Assembly: GCA_964635125.1 (NCBI GenBank)
Contig: CAZWMQ010000002.1
Span: 47,591-111,590, forward strand
From: an uncultured Candidatus Saccharibacteria bacterium
Lineage (GTDB): Bacteria > Patescibacteriota > Minisyncoccia > Phycocordibacterales > UBA5272
Direction: 5' to 3'
Length of the DNA: 64,000 nucleotides
In this document: positions 19,996-36,326 of the stretch, piece after piece
Numbering within the stretch: position 1 is the stretch's first letter
Layout: the number at the start of each line of letters is the position of its first letter
Notes under the pieces: model-generated
Databases searched by the model: none
Seen by the model: the letters and a program-made list of their open reading frames with translations, nothing else
Told to the model about the DNA's origin: nothing
Made by a program: the position numbers and the translations under genes

Positions 19996-21695
19996 AAACT
20001 CAAAAGAGATTGGAGAGAGAAGCGGAGTCGAACCACTACCTTCTCATAAATTATTATTTCGTAGTTACTTTTCAGATGGTAACTCGGATAGAATTAATAA
20101 ACTTATGTGATGTCCTAACCGTTAGACGAGCTCTCTTCAATCTTTTGAGTATAAAATCCTATAATGATGTGAGAAGTTTTACTTCTCAATTCGAAAAACT
20201 AAATAAAAATCAAAATAAATTTCAATCAATAACTAGTCTTCCGAATTGAAAAGTAAAATATATAAAAATAATTAATGATAAACATATTTCCTAATAGGAT
20301 ATGGGTATTAGTAATCCTCAGCTGAATGCATTACTGCACTTACACTTAGACCCTATCAACGTAATCATCTCTTACGACCCTTATAGAATACTTATCTTGA
20401 AGTTGGCTTCGTTCTTAGATGCTTTCAGAACTTATCCATTCCCGACTTGGCTACTGGGCGATCCAGCTAGCGCTAGAGCCCACACACCAGAGGTCAGTTC
20501 ATCTCGGTCCTCTCGTACTAGAGATAAATCTTCTCAATATTCCAAACGCCTGCAGTAGATAGGAGACCAACCTGTCTCACGACGGTTTGAACCCAGCTCG
20601 CGTATCTTTTTAAATGGCGAACAGCCATACCCTTGGGAGCTTCTTCACCCCCAGGATAAGATGAGCCGACATCGAGGTGCCGAACTCCACCGTCGCTATG
20701 GACGCTTAGGTGGAACTAGCCTGTTATCCCCGTGGTAGCTTCTATCCGTTAATCTTCAACTGCATCTAATGCAAATTGTCGGTTCACTATGTTCTACTTT
20801 CGTATCTGCTCGACATGCCCGTCTTACAGTTAAGCCAGTTTATGCCATTACACTATCGGCACGGTTTCCATTCGCGCCTAACTGACCTTAATAAACCCCT
20901 CCGTTACTCTTTAGGAGGGTACCGCCCCAGTAAAACTCCCCACCAGATACTGTCTCTCAACGTTTTTTCCGTTGAGGTTAGTGTTTGCCAAGTTACAGAT
21001 GGCTATTTCACTGTCGACTCCATGACAACCGAAATCGTCACTTCAAAGTCTCACCACTATACTACGCAATAAATTAACAAACACAATACCAAGCTAGAGT
21101 AAAGCTCACGGGGTCTTTTCGTCTAACTGCAGGTAGGCGGCATCTTCACCGCCACTGTATTTTCACCGAGCTACTCCCTGAGACAGTTCCCCAGTCATTA
21201 CACCATTCGTGCACGTCTGAACTTACCAGACAAGGAACTTCGCTCAACTGTTCCTTTAAAAGTTGGACTCTATCTTCATCTTTCTTTTACAAGTTAAGAT
21301 GCGTACCGCTGGTCTCTAGTTAGGTACATTGACGCATAATATATTTCTATAAGTGCGGGTAGCTTTATAAATGGTTAATGAATTTAAAACTATTTCCTAA
21401 AACAATCACGACACTAATCTTATCGTCCCAATCATTTCAGATACAAATAATATTTATATCTGAAACCTTAGGACGATTATAGTTATCGCCGACATTGACG
21501 GGGGCTTATATCAGTCAGCCACATGGCAAATTCAAAGTTAGTCCAAAATAAATTTTAAACGCTTTAAATCCACCATGTGACCACCGATATTTGACCTTCC
21601 CGCATTGGTCAGGTGTCACCCCATATACATACTCTTACGAGTTCGCATGGAGCTGTGTTTTAGATAAACAGTTGCCAGAGAAACTTTCGCTGCGG

Positions 21696-22087
21696 CCCAC
21701 ACTATAAAGCTCTCTTTAAATCTTCAAAATCTAAAGAGAGAAAATAGGGTGCCGGTAAATTGGTACTACTCAATAATGGATCATACTGAACGTTACTCGT
21801 ATGATTAGGCTTTTTTTCTTCCGAACCCCAACTTCAAAGATTTCTTTTACAAGAAATAAATCCATTGTTTGTCGAACAAAAATGCTATTACTTTCAACAT
21901 GACTGTGATTGCATATTGAAAAACATTTCTGACGGAGGTGTTTCGCTTTCCTATCAACACCTCGTAGCGTTTACTAAAACTCTGCAGTTCTAGCTGATCA
22001 TTTAAGACCATTTCTCATTATTAACTAATCTCATACCAATTCCCGAGCAATACTTTCAAGCTCATAAAAAGAGCTTTATAGTGTGGG
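21696..22087 (-). repeat. 392-bp insertion in 23S flanked by perfect 18/19-bp inverted repeats
   Basis: 'CCCACACTATAAAGCTCTC' at 21696-21714 and 'AGAGCTTTATAGTGTGGG' at 22070-22087. Confidence 0.55.
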
Positions 22088-22691
22088 CAAGCCTTATTGC
22101 TAACTTACGGCTGCTTTTTTGCCTAGTTCCTTGGGGAGAAATCACTCGTTCGCCTTGGTCTACTCGACCTGAATACCTGTGTCGGTTTGCGGTACGGACT
22201 TATATAAATTTAAAGTATTGCGGATTTTGTGAATAATGTATCCTAGATGACTAGCTACATTATTCACAAAGCAATATCTACTATTCAGTAGATGTAGAAA
22301 CTTTTCTCGGCACAGTGCTCCTTTATCTTCACCGGTATTGCTACAAGCTTCACTTCATAACTCTCGGTATTCAAGAACTGATTTACATGCTCTTGCCAAT
22401 CATTACAAAGACCACAATCTGATAAGTGGCATAAAATACAACCATGCGTCATTCCATCACATTTATACAAGGTAAAGGAATATTAACCTTTTGTCCATCG
22501 CCTACGGCTCATCGCCATCGGCTTAGGCCCGACTAACTCTTCGCTGACAACCATTGCGAAGAAAACCTTATTCTTTCGGCGTGGGGGGATCTCACCCCCA
22601 TTGCGGTTACTTGTGCCAACATTCGTACTTCTACACGCTCCACGGCGGGTCACCCCTTCCGCTTCATCGCAGAGTAGAACACTCGTCTACC

Positions 22692-22836
22692 GATTGTAAT
22701 TTTCACAAGAAAGAGAAATAACTATTTACTAATTAGGGCGAAGGTCTGACTAATAAATTTATTAAAAAATAAATTTATTAATTCTGCTTCCAAACTATTA
22801 GTCATAATACTTATCTCCCTTGTGAAAATTACAATC
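22692..22836 (-). repeat. 145-bp intervening sequence in 23S flanked by perfect 18-bp inverted repeats (helix-45-type IVS)
   Basis: 'GATTGTAATTTTCACAAG' at 22692-22709 and 'CTTGTGAAAATTACAATC' at 22819-22836. AT-rich interior with a duplicated 12-bp palindrome 'AATAAATTTATT'. Lies ~1.2 kb from the 23S 5' end. Confidence 0.6.
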
Positions 22837-22911
22837 CCTAAACTTCGGTGATATGTTTGAGTCCCGATCATCTGTGGCGCAGAATCTCTCGATGGGTGAG
22901 CTGTTACGCTA

Positions 22912-22946
<35 letters not shown>

Positions 22947-23520
22947 CATTGTCAATGAAATTCCACCTCCTCACTTACACTTAACATATACTTAGGGACC
23001 TTAATTTTAGATCTGGGCTGTTTCCCTTTTGACCACCGGAGCTTCGCCCCCGGAGTCTTACTGCTAGACTATTAAACTTTGGTATTCGGAGTTTGATAGG
23101 TATTGCCGTATTTCTACTAGTCAAGACCTTCCAGTGCTCTACCCCCAAAGCGAACATCTAACGCTATTCCTATAAATATTTCGACGAGAACCAGCTATTA
23201 CCAAGTTCGATTAGCTTTTCACTCCAACCCACAAGTCATCCAAAAGAGTCGCACGACTTACTAGTTCGGGCCTCCACTTATCTTTCGACAAGCTTCGCCC
23301 TGCTCATGGGTAGCTCACCTGGCTTCGGGTCTTTATTATTCAACTATTATTTCGCGCTATTCACACTCGCTTTCGCTTATGACTCCATCACTTTATACGA
23401 CTTAGTCAGCTGAATAATAAAACTCGTTGGCTCATTCTTCAATAGGCACGCAGTCGAGGTGCAAGCACCTCTCCTACTCTTTGTAAACATATGGTTTCAG
23501 TTCTATTTCACTCCCCTCCC

Positions 23521-23564
<44 letters not shown>

Positions 23565-24454
23565 ACTCAAGGAATATTTAGCCTTACCGGTTAGTTCCGG
23601 CAGATTCACCCGAGCTATTCGTGTCTCGAGTTACTCAGGATAAGAGATAAAAAAGAGTTAAATATTTCGAATACGGGACTATCACCCTCTTTGGTGCTAC
23701 TTTCCAATAGCTTATACTATAAATAACTTTTGTAACTTTCCTAGATAATTCTACATCTCTTCCCTACAACCAACTTAGTATTACTACTAAGAATTTGGGC
23801 TTCTCTGTTTTCGCTCGCCGCTACTTGCAGAATAACATTGTTTTCTTTTCCTGTGGGTACTGAAATGTTTTACTTCCCCACGTACGCTTCTAAAGATATG
23901 CTCCCTAGATTCCAAGACTTTACTCTTGGAGAGTTTCCTCATTCAGATATCTTCGGATCGAAGGTTAAAAGGCACCTCCCCGAAGCTTATCGCAGCCTAA
24001 TCACGTCTTTCATCGCTTCCTTGAACCAAGGCATCCACCTTATGCTCTTATTTCCTATTAGGAAATATATTTACCATCTTTATTTTTAACACCGCTGTCA
24101 AAAATAAATATTATTTTTATACAGTGTCTATATTATTCTCATAATATAGACTTACCTTTATTTTCACATCTATATACATTGCCTGAAAAGACCCCAAGAT
24201 ATTTGGGATATCAAATTGTGCAATGCTATAGGATTCTATTGACAAATAACTTGTCTAAATTTTTGAAAATAAAAACCGCTTTTTAAGCGGCGACTAAAAA
24301 CACTTTTTAGAAGCTGCTTAATTTTTCTGTTTTAAATTCAACATATTTAGGTCTTTCAATATTAACATAATGGAAATAAAAATGCAAACCAATCTGATAT
24401 CTAATTGCTAGTATCTAGTTTCTAGTTAAAATAACCTTTCTAGATAACTATAGG

Positions 24455-33659: not shown

Positions 33660-34754
33660 ATGGCAGTAAAAAAGAAAGTAGCAAAAGCTAAGAAAACAAT
33701 CGGAGAGAAAATTGAAGGTAAAAAAGTTAATGCAGATGAGTTATTAAAAGAAATACAACAAAAATTCGGTGAAGGAGCTATTATGAAGCTTGGAGAAACC
33801 CCAAAAGTTGATATTGGAGTAATCGGAACTGGATCAATTGGATTAGATTATGCCTTAGGTGTTGGTGGACTTCCTCGAGGAAGAATTGTTGAAATCTACG
33901 GACCAGAGTCCTCTGGAAAAACTACTTTGACACTTCATGTAATTGCTGAGGCACAGAAAATGGGAGGAACTTGTGCTTTTATTGATGCTGAACATGCTAT
34001 GGATCCAGAATATGCTAAGAAGCTTGGCATCAATATTAATGAATTATTAATTTCTCAACCAGATAATGGTGAGCAAGCTCTCGATATTGCAGAAACTTTA
34101 GTTAGATCTGGAAAAATTGATGTCTTAATTATTGATTCAGTTGCTGCCTTAACTCCACAAGCAGAAATCGAAGGAGATATGTCCCAAGCTCATGTTGGTA
34201 GACAAGCAAGACTCATGTCCCAAGCTTTAAGAAAATTAACTTCTATTGCCCACAAGTCAAAGACAGTAATTATATTTATCAATCAGATAAGAATGCAAAT
34301 TGGAATAATGTTCGGTAATCCTGAAACAACTCCAGGAGGAAAGGCATTAAAGTTTTATGCTTCGGTCCGCTTAGACATTCGTAAGATCGCTCAGATTAAG
34401 AAAGGAGACGAGGTGCTTGGGGCTAGAACTCGAGTAAAAGTAGTTAAAAATAAAGTGGCTGCTCCATTTAAACAAACTGAGTTCGATATTATGTATGGAG
34501 AAGGTATTTCTCATGAAGGAGAGTTACTAGCTCTTGGAGAGAAATTTAAGATAATAAATAAAAGCGGATCTAGTTATACTTTTGGAGAGGAAAAGTTAGG
34601 ACGAGGTTATGATGCTGCTAGAAGCTATCTAAAAGAAAATCCTAAAGTAACTAAAGAAATTGAAAAACAAATCAGAAAAGCACTGGTTAGTGGTGGCTTA
34701 GAATTCACTCCCGAAAAACACGAAACTGAAGAAGACGAAGCTCCGGAAGAATAA
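33660..34754 (+). CDS. recA: recombinase RecA
   Basis: '[13 protein letters not shown]', 'IIDSVAAL' and '[36 protein letters not shown]'. Confidence 0.95.
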
Positions 34755-34877
34755 TTTTTATCTTTAATTTACTCTATTTTAATAATTTCTATTTTTTATT
34801 CTCTTTTAAAATACTCTTGTAAAATAAGAGTATTTTTTGTTTTCTAAGAAGAATTTGCTATTTTTAATTAAAATTAC

Positions 34878-35045
34878 TTGACAAATAAGTTTGGTTATGT
34901 TAAGATATTAATAGTTCAGAGTTAGGGCCCGCATCATGATGCTTGGCCTTTCGAACAATGATTAACCGGTTAACCGGTAAGTCGGTACCTCAGAAAGATT
35001 CAATCTTTTTGTGAGCCAGTGCCGACAAATATTAGATTTTTTTTA
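34878..35045 (+). ncRNA. candidate orphan structured small RNA (~130 nt) with its own promoter and U-tract, unassigned family
   Basis: TTGACA (34878-83), 17-bp spacer, TG-n-TAAGAT (34898-906). Perfect 12-bp palindromes 'GCATCATGATGC' and 'TTAACCGGTTAA'/'CCGGTTAACCGG'. 8-bp closing stem 'GTCGGTAC'...'GTGCCGAC'. T9 at ~35036-35044. Confidence 0.35.
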
Positions 35046-35052
35046 ACTTAAC

Positions 35053-35084
35053 CCCCCAAGTAATACTTGGGGGTTCGTATTTGT
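35053..35084 (+). terminator. hairpin terminator followed by the rpsA promoter (extended -10 'TGTTATATT' at ~35101-35109)
   Basis: 'CCCCCAAG-TAATA-CTTGGGGG' followed by 'TTCGTATTTG'. Confidence 0.5.
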
Positions 35085-35192
35085 ATAATTCCCCTATCTG
35101 TGTTATATTTTCTTAATCTAATTAACCCAAAGATCAATAATGTTTATTTACTTAACGAATATTTAGATTTTTGCAATTAGAAAAATAAAAAA

Positions 35193-36326
35193 ATGACTAA
35201 TAATAAAGATATAGTATTAAATAAAAATACTGAATTAATATTGAATAATATTAAAAATATTAAAGATGGAGACACTATAGAAGGTCCAGTCTTAGCAATT
35301 ACTAAGAATGCTGTTTATGTTGATCTTGGTAATAATGGTACTGGAAGAATATATGGAATTGAGTATATTCATGCTAAAGACTTAATTAAAAGAATTAATA
35401 TTGGAGACTTGATCTCAGCTAAAGTACTTATGGCTTTAGATAAAGACGGATATATTGATTTATCACTACAAGAAGCAAGATTCGCTTTGATCTGGACTGA
35501 AGCTGAACAAGCTTTGAAAGAAAAAAGAAATATGAGTCTAGTTGTCAAAGATGCTAATAAAGGAGGATTAATCTTAGAGTGAAATAATTTAAATGGATTT
35601 TTACCTTCGTCTCAATTGAAAGGAGAAAATTATCCTAAAGTTACCGATGGAAACAAAGATCAAATCTTATCTGAACTTAAAAAATTAATTGGAGAAAGAG
35701 TTTCTGTGAATATTATTGCGGTAATTCCAAAAGAAGGTAAATTAATCTTCTCTGAAGCTAGTGATGACTTAGCTAAAGCTGCAAAAGGAGAAAAAAATGA
35801 AAAAGTAAAAGAAGCTACTAAGAATAATAAGACTCTGGCAAAAATTATCTCTAACTACAATCTAGGAGATAAGTTAGATGGAGTTGTAACTGGTATAGTT
35901 GACTTTGGAATCTTTGTAAAAATTGATAATGAGGTAGAAGGATTAATCCATAAAAGTGAAATTGATTGGGGCTTAGTTGAGAATACTAAAGACTATGCTA
36001 AGATTGGTGATAATGTTAAAGTTGAAGTAATTGAGATTAAAGATGGTAAGATTTCTCTATCAATGAAGAAATTAAAACCTAATCCATGATTAAATGCTTC
36101 TAAGAAGTACAAGAAAGGTGATGCTGTCGATGGAGTGGTAATCAGATTTAATAAGCATGGGGCTCTAGTCTCGGTTGAAGAAGGGGTTGCTGGGTTAATT
36201 CATATCTCTGATTTTGAAAATGAAGCTAAGATGAAAGAAGCTCTATCCCTCGGTAAAGTTTATAAATTTGAGATTAATTTATTCGATGGTAAAGATGAGA
36301 AAATGACTTTAACTTTAAAGAAGTAA
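35193..36326 (+). CDS. rpsA: 30S ribosomal protein S1 (4 S1 domains). Merges 3 track ORFs through 2 in-frame TGA
   Basis: TGA at 35580-82 gives 'GLILE-W-NNLNGFLPSSQL'. TGA at 36087-89 gives 'KLKPNP-W-LNASKKYKKGDAVDGVV'. Both TGA sit on the conserved S1 Trp positions. Confidence 0.8.

What the first reader, a model, noticed from the sequence alone, without database searches (positions are those of the whole stretch)
34878..35045. Orphan ~130-nt structured RNA with its own promoter between recA and rpsA, built from perfect 12-bp palindromes
The locus has three parts:
- a consensus promoter TTGACA, 17 bp spacer, TG-TAAGAT;
- a highly self-complementary transcript with 'GCATCATGATGC', 'TTAACCGGTTAACCGG' and an 8-bp closing stem;
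- a U9 tract.

A separate terminator and promoter follow before rpsA. It does not match SRP-RNA domain IV, the tmRNA ends or the RNase P signatures that I can recognise. It could be 6S-like, a novel sRNA, or a protein-operator cluster, since the perfect palindromes also resemble DNA binding sites.
Basis: seen in the sequence. Interest (0 to 1): 0.5.

Follow-up and report, generated by a model that had tools for sequence, protein, structure and literature searches.

The report
Orphan small RNA gene beside recA
Between recA and the ribosomal protein S1 gene of an uncultivated, tiny-genome (CPR/Paceibacteria) bacterium sits what looks like a self-contained gene for a ~170-nt structured non-coding RNA that matches no known RNA family. 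Relatives keep its promoter but carry unrelated RNA sequences there or have deleted the gene, so it is most likely a fast-evolving, dispensable regulatory RNA rather than a core cellular RNA.

Summary
The T-run is U8 (35037-35044), not U9, and it is not the 3' end. The real terminator is the CCCCC hairpin at 35053-35073, so the RNA is about 165-175 nt, not about 130.

- **Evidence for an RNA gene:**
  - The promoter (TTGACA-17-TGtTAAGAT) is the only site of its kind in the 64 kb window.
  - An orthologous promoter is kept in seven relatives that share the recA-rpsA gene order.
  - The + strand folds into three hairpins (z = -4.6 to -5.0), with four G-U pairs that the minus strand cannot form.
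  - The unit lies between recA's own terminator and rpsA's own promoter and leader.
- **No known family:** No Rfam family matches (6S, SRP, tmRNA and RNase P RNA included).
- **Not coding:** This genome uses leaderless mRNAs without Shine-Dalgarno sites, and there is no start codon at the transcription start.
- **No homologue:** Relatives' transcripts from the same promoter are 138-431 nt and show no significant similarity to this one. One near relative has cleanly deleted its whole 432-nt gene.

Verdict: a plausible orphan, dispensable small RNA at a rapidly turning-over locus. Its function is unknown and it has no covariation or expression support. Interest is modest.

Side findings: a conserved, covarying rpsA leader; UGA read as Trp; widespread leaderless genes.

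The parts
34808..34838 (+). recA intrinsic terminator (AAATACTCTT-loop-AAGAGTATTT followed by a T-run). It closes the recA transcript upstream of the RNA gene.
   Evidence: Read from the sequence. The same hairpin type is conserved after recA in relatives (AAAATACCCTT..AAGGGTATTTT).
34878..34906 (+). Promoter of the RNA: -35 TTGACA (34878-34883), 17-nt spacer, extended -10 TGtTAAGAT (34898-34906).
   Evidence: 10 of 12 consensus matches plus the TG. It is the only CTTGACA-N14-16-TGnTAnnnT site in the window. An orthologous AAATACTTGACAAA..TGnTAAGATAT is kept in L085, L086, L089, L097, L099, L102 and L107.
34914..34956 (+). Hairpin 1. Basal stem GUUC-AGAG / CUUU-C-GAAC. Apical extension GGGCC/GGCCU that carries the palindrome GCAU-CAUG-AUGC (34931-34942).
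   Evidence: The basal stem and the following AACAAUG resemble L085's 5' hairpin at the same offset from the promoter, with a C-G to G-C swap.
34965..34978 (+). Hairpin 2: ACCGG-UUAA-CCGGU, a perfect 14-nt palindrome.
34981..35026 (+). Hairpin 3: a 19-bp interrupted stem, GUCGGUAC..CUCA..GAAAGAU-UCA-AUCUUUU..UGAG..GUGCCGAC.
35027..35052 (+). Single-stranded A/U-rich segment that includes U8 (35037-35044).
   Evidence: It starts 11 nt after hairpin 3, so it is not a terminator tail.
35053..35083 (+). Intrinsic terminator of the RNA: CCCCCAAGU-AAU-ACUUGGGGG, then UUCGUAUUUG (a weak U-tail).
   Evidence: 9 pairs, 6 of them G-C. RNAs at the orthologous locus end in equivalent AACC...GGUU(U)n hairpins.
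35081..35109 (+). rpsA's own promoter: TTGTAT (35081-35086), 17-nt spacer holding the conserved TCCCCTAT, and extended -10 TGtTATATT (35101-35109). This is not part of the RNA gene; it bounds it.
   Evidence: Read from the sequence; the promoter scan did not list it. Conserved across 16 relatives.
35117..35192 (+). Conserved structured rpsA 5' leader. P1 is UCUAAUU (35117-35123) with AAUUAGA (35175-35181). P2 is CAAAGAUC (35128-35135) with GAUUUUUG (35166-35173). This is a neighbouring element, not part of the RNA gene.
   Evidence: P2 is paired in 100% of cells across 16 sequences. P1 is present in all 16: the automated search recovers it at the expected position in 11 with 9 different sequences, and in L081, L089, L090, L097 and L102 it was placed by eye.

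Best explanation
This is a self-contained gene for a non-coding small RNA of about 165-175 nt in a Paceibacteria (CPR/Patescibacteria) genome.

How it is built (shown or read from sequence):
- A near-consensus sigma-70 promoter with -35 TTGACA and an extended -10 starts transcription near 34912.
- The RNA folds into three stem-loops (34914-34956, 34965-34978, 34981-35026).
- These are followed by a 26-nt single-stranded A/U-rich segment.
- The RNA ends at its own intrinsic terminator (35053-35073).
- It is insulated from recA by recA's terminator, and from rpsA by rpsA's own promoter and leader.

Evolution (shown): it occupies a locus whose promoter is under purifying selection, while the transcribed sequence turns over rapidly and can be lost.

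Function (inferred, not shown): a dispensable, lineage-specific regulatory RNA that acts in trans. The exposed A/U-rich segment and the hairpin loops would contact a partner RNA or an RNA-binding protein. It is not a housekeeping RNA.
For: - **Promoter:**
  - One search identifies it, and it is unique in the 64 kb window.
  - It is retained at the orthologous position in seven relatives whose S1 proteins are only 69-78% identical, while the surrounding intergenic DNA has diverged.
  - TGnTAnnnT elements are clearly functional promoters in this genome: 11 of 41 long ORFs have one ending 4-9 nt before the ATG, against 0.8% of random ATGs.
- **Structure:** z = -4.58 and -5.04, with 0 of 200 shuffles as stable. 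The model has 40 pairs, 4 of them G-U, and the minus strand is 8 kcal/mol weaker. The region has the highest intergenic GC peak.
- **Boundaries:** the recA terminator, the RNA's terminator, and the rpsA promoter and leader are all present and conserved.
- **Non-coding:**
  - There is no ATG/GTG/TTG at the predicted start, although this genome relies on leaderless starts. No Shine-Dalgarno motif is found upstream of any of 41 ORFs.
  - The only + strand sORF (25-30 codons) lies inside hairpins 2 and 3, and I saw no similar small ORF in the relatives' transcripts when reading them.
- **Not housekeeping:** L103 and L104 are L085 minus a clean 432-nt deletion of the entire orthologous RNA gene, at 96% S1 nucleotide identity.
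- **No known family:**, and ARAGORN.
Against: - There is no expression data.
- No homologue of this particular RNA was found:
  - nhmmer found nothing in 80 recA-based loci.
  - The covariance model R1 found nothing in the window plus 32 loci (the syntenic relatives fetched by then and L001-L020).
  - Local alignments against the transcripts at the orthologous locus in relatives are not significant.
  So the structure has no covariation support and rests on thermodynamics alone.
- Rapid turnover and loss of the transcribed sequence also fit a transcript with little or no sequence-specific function.
- In a genome of leaderless mRNAs, the classical sRNA mechanism (masking a ribosome-binding site) has few obvious targets. 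No convincing complementary target was found in the window.
- The terminator's U-tail is weak (UUCGUAUUUG), so some read-through into rpsA is possible.
Confidence: 0.6

Rival explanations
1. The strong upstream promoter exists for rpsA (a distal P1) or to modulate rpsA's proximal promoter. The structured segment would then be a variable, partly terminated upstream leader or spacer whose sequence matters little. Its hairpins would only stabilise the 5' end and attenuate read-through.
For: - The promoter is conserved while the transcribed sequence is not.
- The window's terminator has a poor U-tail that overlaps rpsA's -35.
- In L087 the same promoter type sits upstream of rpsA without recA, and there it drives a 110-aa ORF.
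Against: - Relatives have strong terminators (GGGGGUUUUAUUUU and similar) between this promoter and rpsA. Several have two or three further terminated units, or a whole ORF, in between.
- rpsA has its own conserved promoter and covarying leader directly upstream.
- L103 and L104 lost the unit but kept rpsA's promoter and leader.
Confidence: 0.15
2. A largely non-functional transcript: a decaying or drifting remnant, for example a deletion derivative of a longer ancestral RNA like the 415-nt one in L085. It would be kept only because the promoter and terminators are retained.
For: - Only the base of the 5' hairpin resembles L085.
- Lengths vary from 138 to 431 nt.
- The gene is cleanly lost in L103 and L104.
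- No conserved motif is shared by the RNAs at the orthologous locus in relatives.
Against: - In a 27-28% GC intergenic background, a 42-49% GC segment with a z = -5 fold and four strand-specific G-U pairs is not what neutral decay gives in an AT-biased genome.
- Promoter conservation across relatives at 69-78% S1 identity implies selection for transcription.
Confidence: 0.15
3. A DNA-level element: the perfect palindromes GCATCATGATGC and ACCGGTTAACCGGT are operators for dimeric DNA-binding proteins (or restriction-modification-related sites) placed downstream of a promoter.
For: - Both are perfect dyads of 12 and 14 bp.
- The 100-nt stretch ties for the highest density of G/C-containing 6-bp palindromes in the window, 7 against about 0.6 expected.
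Against: - The two dyads are unrelated to each other.
- Neither occurs elsewhere in the window nor at the orthologous position in any relative.
- Each is simply a 4-5-bp stem with a self-complementary tetraloop, nested in a larger RNA fold.
- The + strand gains 8 kcal/mol from G-U pairs.
- No regulator gene is adjacent: the neighbours are ftsK, a small Glucodextran_B-like protein, recA, rpsA and pth.
Confidence: 0.05
4. An mRNA for a small protein: the 25-codon ORF from ATG 34958, MINRLTGKSVPQKDSIFLWASADKY, with UGA read as Trp.
For: - The ORF exists under code 4.
- 'AACAATG' after the 5' hairpin is shared with L085, where a 24-codon ORF also starts (read by eye).
Against: - The two peptides are unrelated.
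- The start is 45 nt inside the transcript, behind a stable hairpin, in a genome with leaderless starts and no Shine-Dalgarno use.
- The ORF runs through hairpins 2 and 3.
- I saw no similar small ORF in the other relatives' transcripts when reading them.
Confidence: 0.03

Closest known systems
Stand-alone bacterial trans-acting small RNAs with their own sigma-70 promoter and intrinsic terminator (for example the RsaE/RoxS- or Spot 42-type architecture; from general knowledge)
   Same: - An independent transcription unit in an intergenic region.
- 100-200 nt long.
- Several stem-loops.
- A single-stranded A/U-rich stretch just before a terminator hairpin.
- Poor conservation beyond close relatives.
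   Different: - No homologues, target or chaperone are known.
- The host genome uses leaderless mRNAs without Shine-Dalgarno sites, so the usual ribosome-binding-site masking mechanism is unlikely.
- The sequence is not kept even among relatives that keep the promoter.
6S RNA (Rfam RF00013)
   Same: Similar size. A strongly promoted, non-coding, non-essential RNA.
   Different: - No covariance-model match at E <= 10.
- The predicted fold is three independent hairpins, with no closing stem or central bubble.
- RNAs at the orthologous locus vary from 138 to 431 nt.
Bacterial small SRP RNA (4.5S, RF00169), tmRNA, RNase P RNA
   Same: Small, GC-enriched structured RNA genes with their own promoter and terminator in AT-rich reduced genomes.
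   Different: - No Rfam or ARAGORN match.
- Hairpin 3 has a UCA loop, with no GNRA tetraloop or domain IV loops.
- The orthologous gene is deleted in a close relative, which an essential RNA would not tolerate.
Autoregulatory 5' leader of rpsA (S1) in E. coli and other ribosomal-protein leaders (from general knowledge)
   Same: Lies directly upstream of rpsA and is made of several hairpins.
   Different: - A terminator and a separate promoter lie between this RNA and rpsA.
- The real conserved rpsA leader of this clade is a different element at 35117-35192, with its own covarying helix.

Membership tests
6S RNA (RF00013) | Match to the family covariance model | tested here: not met
   No hit at the gathering score or at E <= 10 with permissive filters on 34700-35250.
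6S RNA (RF00013) | Rod-like fold: 5' and 3' ends paired in a closing stem, a large central bubble, a terminal hairpin | tested here: not met
   The minimum-energy and centroid folds are three separate hairpins plus a terminator. The only end-closing helices are 4-6 weak pairs that are absent from or reduced in the centroid folds.
Bacterial small SRP RNA (RF00169) | Covariance-model match; a domain IV hairpin with a GNRA tetraloop and conserved internal loops | tested here: not met
   No Rfam hit. The hairpin loops are CAUG, UUAA and UCA.
Bacterial small SRP RNA / RNase P RNA / tmRNA (essential housekeeping RNAs) | Gene retained in all close relatives | tested here: not met
   The RNA gene at the orthologous locus is cleanly deleted (432 nt) in L103 and L104 relative to L085, at 96% S1 nucleotide identity. 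ARAGORN finds no tmRNA or tRNA here.
Stand-alone bacterial small RNA gene (generic class) | Own promoter | tested here: met
   TTGACA-17-TGtTAAGAT. Unique in the window. Orthologous promoter conserved in 7 relatives.
Stand-alone bacterial small RNA gene (generic class) | Own intrinsic terminator, and insulation from the flanking genes | tested here: met
   Terminator at 35053-35073. recA terminator at 34808-34838. rpsA's own promoter and leader lie downstream.
Stand-alone bacterial small RNA gene (generic class) | Strand-specific secondary structure beyond composition | tested here: met
   z = -4.58 and -5.04 on the + strand, against -2.28 on the - strand. Four G-U pairs.
Stand-alone bacterial small RNA gene (generic class) | Structure supported by covariation in homologues | tested here: inconclusive
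   No homologue was retrievable. The only support is one C-G to G-C swap in the hairpin-1 base against L085.
Stand-alone bacterial small RNA gene (generic class) | Detectable discrete transcript | not testable with these tools
   No transcriptome data are available for this uncultivated organism.
Transcription-factor operator (DNA palindrome) | Dyad conserved at the orthologous position, repeated at other regulated promoters, or next to a regulator gene | tested here: not met
   The dyads are absent from the relatives' orthologous regions and from elsewhere in the window. The neighbours are ftsK, recA, rpsA and pth.
rpsA (S1) cis-regulatory leader | Contiguous with the rpsA mRNA, with no terminator or promoter in between, and conserved with the gene | tested here: not met
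   A terminator and a promoter (read) intervene. The conserved leader is a different element at 35117-35192.

The most novel reading that the evidence does not exclude
The recA-rpsA spacer of this Paceibacteria clade may be a dedicated 'RNA cassette' locus. A strongly conserved, near-consensus promoter would drive abundant structured RNAs whose sequence is under diversifying or rapid-turnover selection and which can be swapped or lost. That pattern is expected for molecules engaged in conflict or partner-specific interaction (phage, host cell or strain-specific targets), or for sponges of an abundant RNA-binding protein such as S1. All of this would occur in organisms that translate mostly leaderless mRNAs. 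The window's RNA, with its self-complementary CAUG and UUAA loops, would be one allele of this system.
Probability: 0.12. Interest if true: 0.6.

Novelty: new member of a known kind. Interest (0 to 1): 0.3.

Why it matters
Essentially nothing is known about regulatory RNAs in CPR/Patescibacteria. These are uncultivated episymbionts with genomes of about 0.6 Mb.

A promoter-conserved but sequence-variable RNA locus next to two core genes would be a tractable entry point for metatranscriptomic validation. It would also show that even these minimal genomes maintain fast-evolving non-coding genes.

As it stands, the element is a single-genome prediction with no homologues. Its value is as a candidate, not as a discovery.

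The neighbouring rpsA leader is better supported. It has a covarying helix plus an invariant CCAAAAAU/AUUUUUGG helix in 16 sequences and is absent from Rfam 15. It may be the more useful lead, as a candidate S1 autoregulatory element in a leaderless-mRNA organism.

Tried and rejected
1. **Known RNA families.** Rfam at gathering score on the whole window, and at E <= 10 or E <= 1 on the region and on nine relatives' loci, gave only chance hits to miRNA and lncRNA families, an Enterococcus antisense sRNA, the DUF3800-VIII sRNA motif and a sub-threshold Trp-leader hit in L085.
2. **Homologues by recA synteny.** In 80 genome loci there was no nhmmer hit, no rpsA nearby and no such promoter after recA.
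3. **Homologues by S1 synteny.** Across 20 loci the promoter is conserved but the transcripts are unrelated. Local alignments against shuffles were not significant. A single-sequence covariance model found nothing.
4. **The identical-S1 contig L108.** It stops at 35029 and is 100% identical, so it adds no information.
5. **Pattern scans of viral contigs.** The four hits to the 5'-hairpin pattern are unrelated sequences, and the double-palindrome pattern gave none. There is no plasmid or phage similarity.
6. **S1-operator mimic idea.** The RNA's AAUAUUAGAUUUUU resembles the rpsA leader's AAUAUUUAGAUUUUUG (7 of 1000 shuffles reach the score). However, own-genome pairs score no better than cross-genome pairs, and leader motifs are not enriched in the RNAs at the orthologous locus in relatives. 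Rejected as unsupported.
7. **Base-pairing of the sRNA with the rpsA leader.** The own-leader duplex energy is no better than with shuffled sRNA or, in most cases, with other genomes' leaders.
8. **Targets in the window.** Only AT-only 11-14-mers were found, at roughly chance level.
9. **Remnant of the ORFs found in relatives' spacers.** tblastn gave no match.
10. **Small-ORF reading.** Rejected.
11. **Tandem guide-RNA arrays (TIGR-Tas).** A literature search surfaced a TIGR-Tas paper. Apart from the doubled TTAACCGG I saw no repeat units when reading the sequence, and the neighbouring genes are housekeeping, not Tas-like. No repeat-finder was run and the paper was not read.

Full report
**Observation**

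The features are present at the stated coordinates.
- The -35 TTGACA lies at 34878-34883. A 17-nt spacer follows, then the extended -10 TGtTAAGAT at 34898-34906.
- The palindromes are GCATCATGATGC (34931-34942) and TTAACCGGTTAACCGG (34962-34977). The second contains the 14-bp dyad ACCGGTTAACCGGT.
- The T-run is eight T (35037-35044), not nine.
- The flanking genes are recA (33660-34754; Pfam RecA, E = 2.6e-137) and a three-S1-domain ribosomal protein S1 (35193-36326).

The signal exceeds chance.
- The + strand RNA 34908-35048 folds at -42.6 kcal/mol against -27.3 +/- 3.3 for dinucleotide shuffles (z = -4.58, 0 of 200).
- Extended to the downstream hairpin, z = -5.04.
- The reverse complement reaches only z = -2.28. 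The + strand model contains four G-U pairs.
- The segment has the highest 80-nt GC content (0.49) of all intergenic stretches of at least 150 nt in this roughly 28% GC window.
- CTTGACA-N14-16-TGnTAnnnT occurs exactly once in the 64 kb.

The palindromes alone are weaker evidence. The window has 136 perfect palindromes of at least 10 bp, but only about 11 contain 6 or more G/C. The 100-nt stretch ties for the highest density of G/C-containing 6-bp palindromes.

**Organism and genomic setting**

- recA and S1 relatives are all Paceibacteria/Parcubacteria (CPR) metagenome-assembled genomes.
- The genome reads UGA as Trp. Two in-frame TGA codons in rpsA sit where 10 of 11 relatives have TGG and where 47 homologues have Trp.
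- None of 41 long ORFs has a Shine-Dalgarno-like motif.
- 11 of the 41 have an extended -10 element ending 4-9 nt before the ATG, against 0.8% of random ATGs. Leaderless mRNAs are therefore common, and TGnTAnnnT elements are real promoters here.

**Anatomy**

- Upstream, recA ends with its own terminator (34808-34838).
- The RNA promoter follows, and the predicted start is near 34912.
- The RNA forms hairpin 1 (34914-34956; basal stem plus a GC-rich apical extension carrying GCAU-CAUG-AUGC).
- Next come hairpin 2 (34965-34978, ACCGG-UUAA-CCGGU) and hairpin 3 (34981-35026).
- A 26-nt A/U-rich single strand containing the U8 run follows.
- The U8 begins 11 nt after hairpin 3, so it cannot be a terminator tail.
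- The only terminator-like site is the 9-bp CCCCC...GGGGG hairpin at 35053-35073. In relatives, the RNAs at the orthologous locus end in equivalent AACC...GGUU hairpins.
- Immediately downstream lie rpsA's own promoter (TTGTAT-17-TGtTATATT, 35081-35109; read, not listed by the scan) and a conserved leader.

**Comparative evidence**

- The more distant Paceibacteria reached through recA (80 loci) lack both the recA-rpsA gene order and the element.
- Relatives reached through S1 (69-78% identity) mostly keep recA-spacer-rpsA.
- In seven of them the orthologous promoter AAATACTTGACAAA..TGnTAAGATAT is retained right after the recA terminator.
- The transcripts it drives are 138-431 nt and are unrelated in sequence to the window's RNA. 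Local alignments against shuffles are not significant. A covariance model of the window RNA finds nothing in the window plus 32 loci. Multiple alignment gives 38% mean column identity.
- The only resemblance is the base of hairpin 1 plus the following AACAAUG. It recurs in L085 at the same offset from the promoter, with one C-G to G-C swap.
- Most of these RNAs (7 of 8) begin with a hairpin within the first few nucleotides.
- L103 and L104, whose S1 gene is 96% identical in nucleotides to L085's, carry a clean 432-nt deletion. It removes the whole RNA gene, from the -35 element to the terminator's 3' arm.
- The locus is thus promoter-conserved, sequence-variable and dispensable.
- The one contig from the same strain (L108) stops at 35029 and is identical.

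**What it is not**

- No Rfam 15 family matches at the gathering score or at E <= 10, in the window or in nine relatives' loci. ARAGORN finds nothing here.
- It is not 6S-like. The fold is three independent hairpins, not a rod with a central bubble, and the RNAs at the orthologous locus vary threefold in length.
- It is not SRP RNA, RNase P RNA or tmRNA. There is no model match and no domain IV features, and the gene can be lost.
- It is not the rpsA leader, because a terminator and a promoter intervene.
- It is unlikely to be coding. There is no start codon at the transcription start in a leaderless-mRNA genome. The only 25-30-codon ORF lies inside hairpins 2 and 3, and I saw no similar small ORF in the relatives' transcripts.
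- It is not a remnant of ORFs seen in relatives' spacers.
- It is not plasmid-, phage- or vector-like.

**Mechanism**

- *Shown:* promoter conservation, strand-specific stable structure, a terminator, insulation from both neighbours, and dispensability of the orthologous gene.
- *Inferred:* it is transcribed as a discrete non-coding RNA that acts in trans. The exposed A/U-rich segment and the loops would be the contact surfaces.
- I tested two specific ideas and found no support for either:
  - Mimicry of the rpsA leader's invariant motifs, as an S1 decoy.
  - Base-pairing with the rpsA leader or with other transcripts in the window.
- The rivals are a distal rpsA promoter with a meaningless structured spacer, a drifting remnant, DNA operators, and a small-protein mRNA. 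They are weighed in the rival section.
- The DNA-operator reading is the weakest. The dyads differ from each other, are not conserved, and are simply short stems with self-complementary tetraloops inside a larger RNA fold.

**Side findings**

1. **The rpsA 5' leader (35117-35192) is a well-supported structured element in 16 sequences.**
   - An invariant helix, CCAAAAAU/AUUUUUGG, is paired in 100% of cells.
   - An outer helix changes sequence while keeping its pairing: the automated search gives 9 different sequences in the 11 loci where it lands at the expected position (TCTAATT/AATTAGA, AATTTGT/ACAAATT, TCTATCTG/CAGATAGG, ATCTTGT/ACAAGAT, TATTCGT/ACGAATA, GCTTAT/ATAAGT and others), and in the other five the helix was placed by eye.
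   - The element is not in Rfam.
2. **UGA = Trp occurs here and, with all four Trp codons, in L089's organism**. A UGA-to-Trp reassignment in Patescibacteriota family JAKLIH01 was reported in 2026 (PMC13092985).
3. **Leaderless gene organisation**.

**Verdict**

This is a credible but unverified orphan small-RNA gene. It is a new, family-less member of a familiar kind, sitting at a fast-evolving locus. Interest is modest (0.3) until expression or covariation data exist.

Noticed in passing
window 35081-35192; also L081, L083, L085-L087, L089, L090, L096-L099, L102, L103, L105, L107 upstream of rpsA: A conserved rpsA (S1) promoter and a structured 5' leader, with no match in my Rfam 15 searches. 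The invariant helix CCAAAAAU/AUUUUUGG is paired in 100% of cells across 16 sequences. The outer helix changes sequence while keeping its pairing (9 different sequences in the 11 loci where the automated search places it correctly). The motifs UUARACC and AUAAUG are conserved and unpaired. It is a candidate S1 autoregulatory element in a genome that otherwise uses leaderless mRNAs.
   Followed up: partly
window 35193-36326 (codons 130 and 299); L089 2501-3640: UGA is read as Trp. The window's rpsA has TGA where 10 of 11 relatives have TGG, and Trp is invariant at the first of these positions in 47 aligned homologues. L089's organism uses TGA for all four Trp codons. UGA-to-Trp in Patescibacteriota (family JAKLIH01) was first reported in 2026 (PMC13092985). 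These two lineages are interleaved with TGG-using relatives, which could mean more than one origin.
   Followed up: partly
whole window (41 ORFs of at least 150 codons): No Shine-Dalgarno-like motif lies upstream of any of the 41 long ORFs. 11 of the 41 have an extended -10 (TGnTAnnnT) ending 4-9 nt before the ATG, against 0.8% of random ATGs. Leaderless mRNAs therefore appear to be the rule for first genes in operons. A literature search found no paper containing both 'Patescibacteria' and 'leaderless' or 'Shine-Dalgarno' among the listed results.
   Followed up: partly
L103 1241-1266 and L104 against L085 3163-3594: A clean 432-nt deletion of the whole RNA gene at the orthologous locus. It runs from the -35 element to the terminator's 3' arm, with a junction ACTTG|GGGGTT. 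The strains are 96% identical in rpsA nucleotides, and the deletion appears in two independent samples.
   Followed up: yes
L081 3370-3900; L085 3640-3890; L089 2270-2380; L105 340-700: The recA-rpsA spacer of relatives holds up to three further small promoter-hairpin-terminator units. In L081 there is a 14-codon Cys/Gly-rich ORF (MVKNPCGGGDGGCC). In L089 and L090 there is a roughly 170-aa protein that begins with a hydrophobic, signal-peptide-like segment. The spacer appears to be a hot spot for small genes.
   Followed up: no
window 20289-24061 (- strand): The 23S rRNA match spans 3773 nt for a 2925-nt model, which implies about 850 nt of insertion (an intron or expansion, as is common in CPR). 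No ORF of at least 90 aa on the rRNA strand was found under code 11.
   Followed up: partly
whole window: Strong avoidance of ACGT (14 observed, 71.5 expected) and GCGC (9 observed, 31.6 expected). TGCA, CATG and GGCC are also depleted. This suggests restriction-modification pressure.
   Followed up: no
L102 3190-3220; L107 2027-2057: A second conserved promoter, CTTGACAAATCAAGTG..TTTTTGTTATTT, lies just downstream of rpsA in two relatives. I did not look for its counterpart in the window.
   Followed up: no
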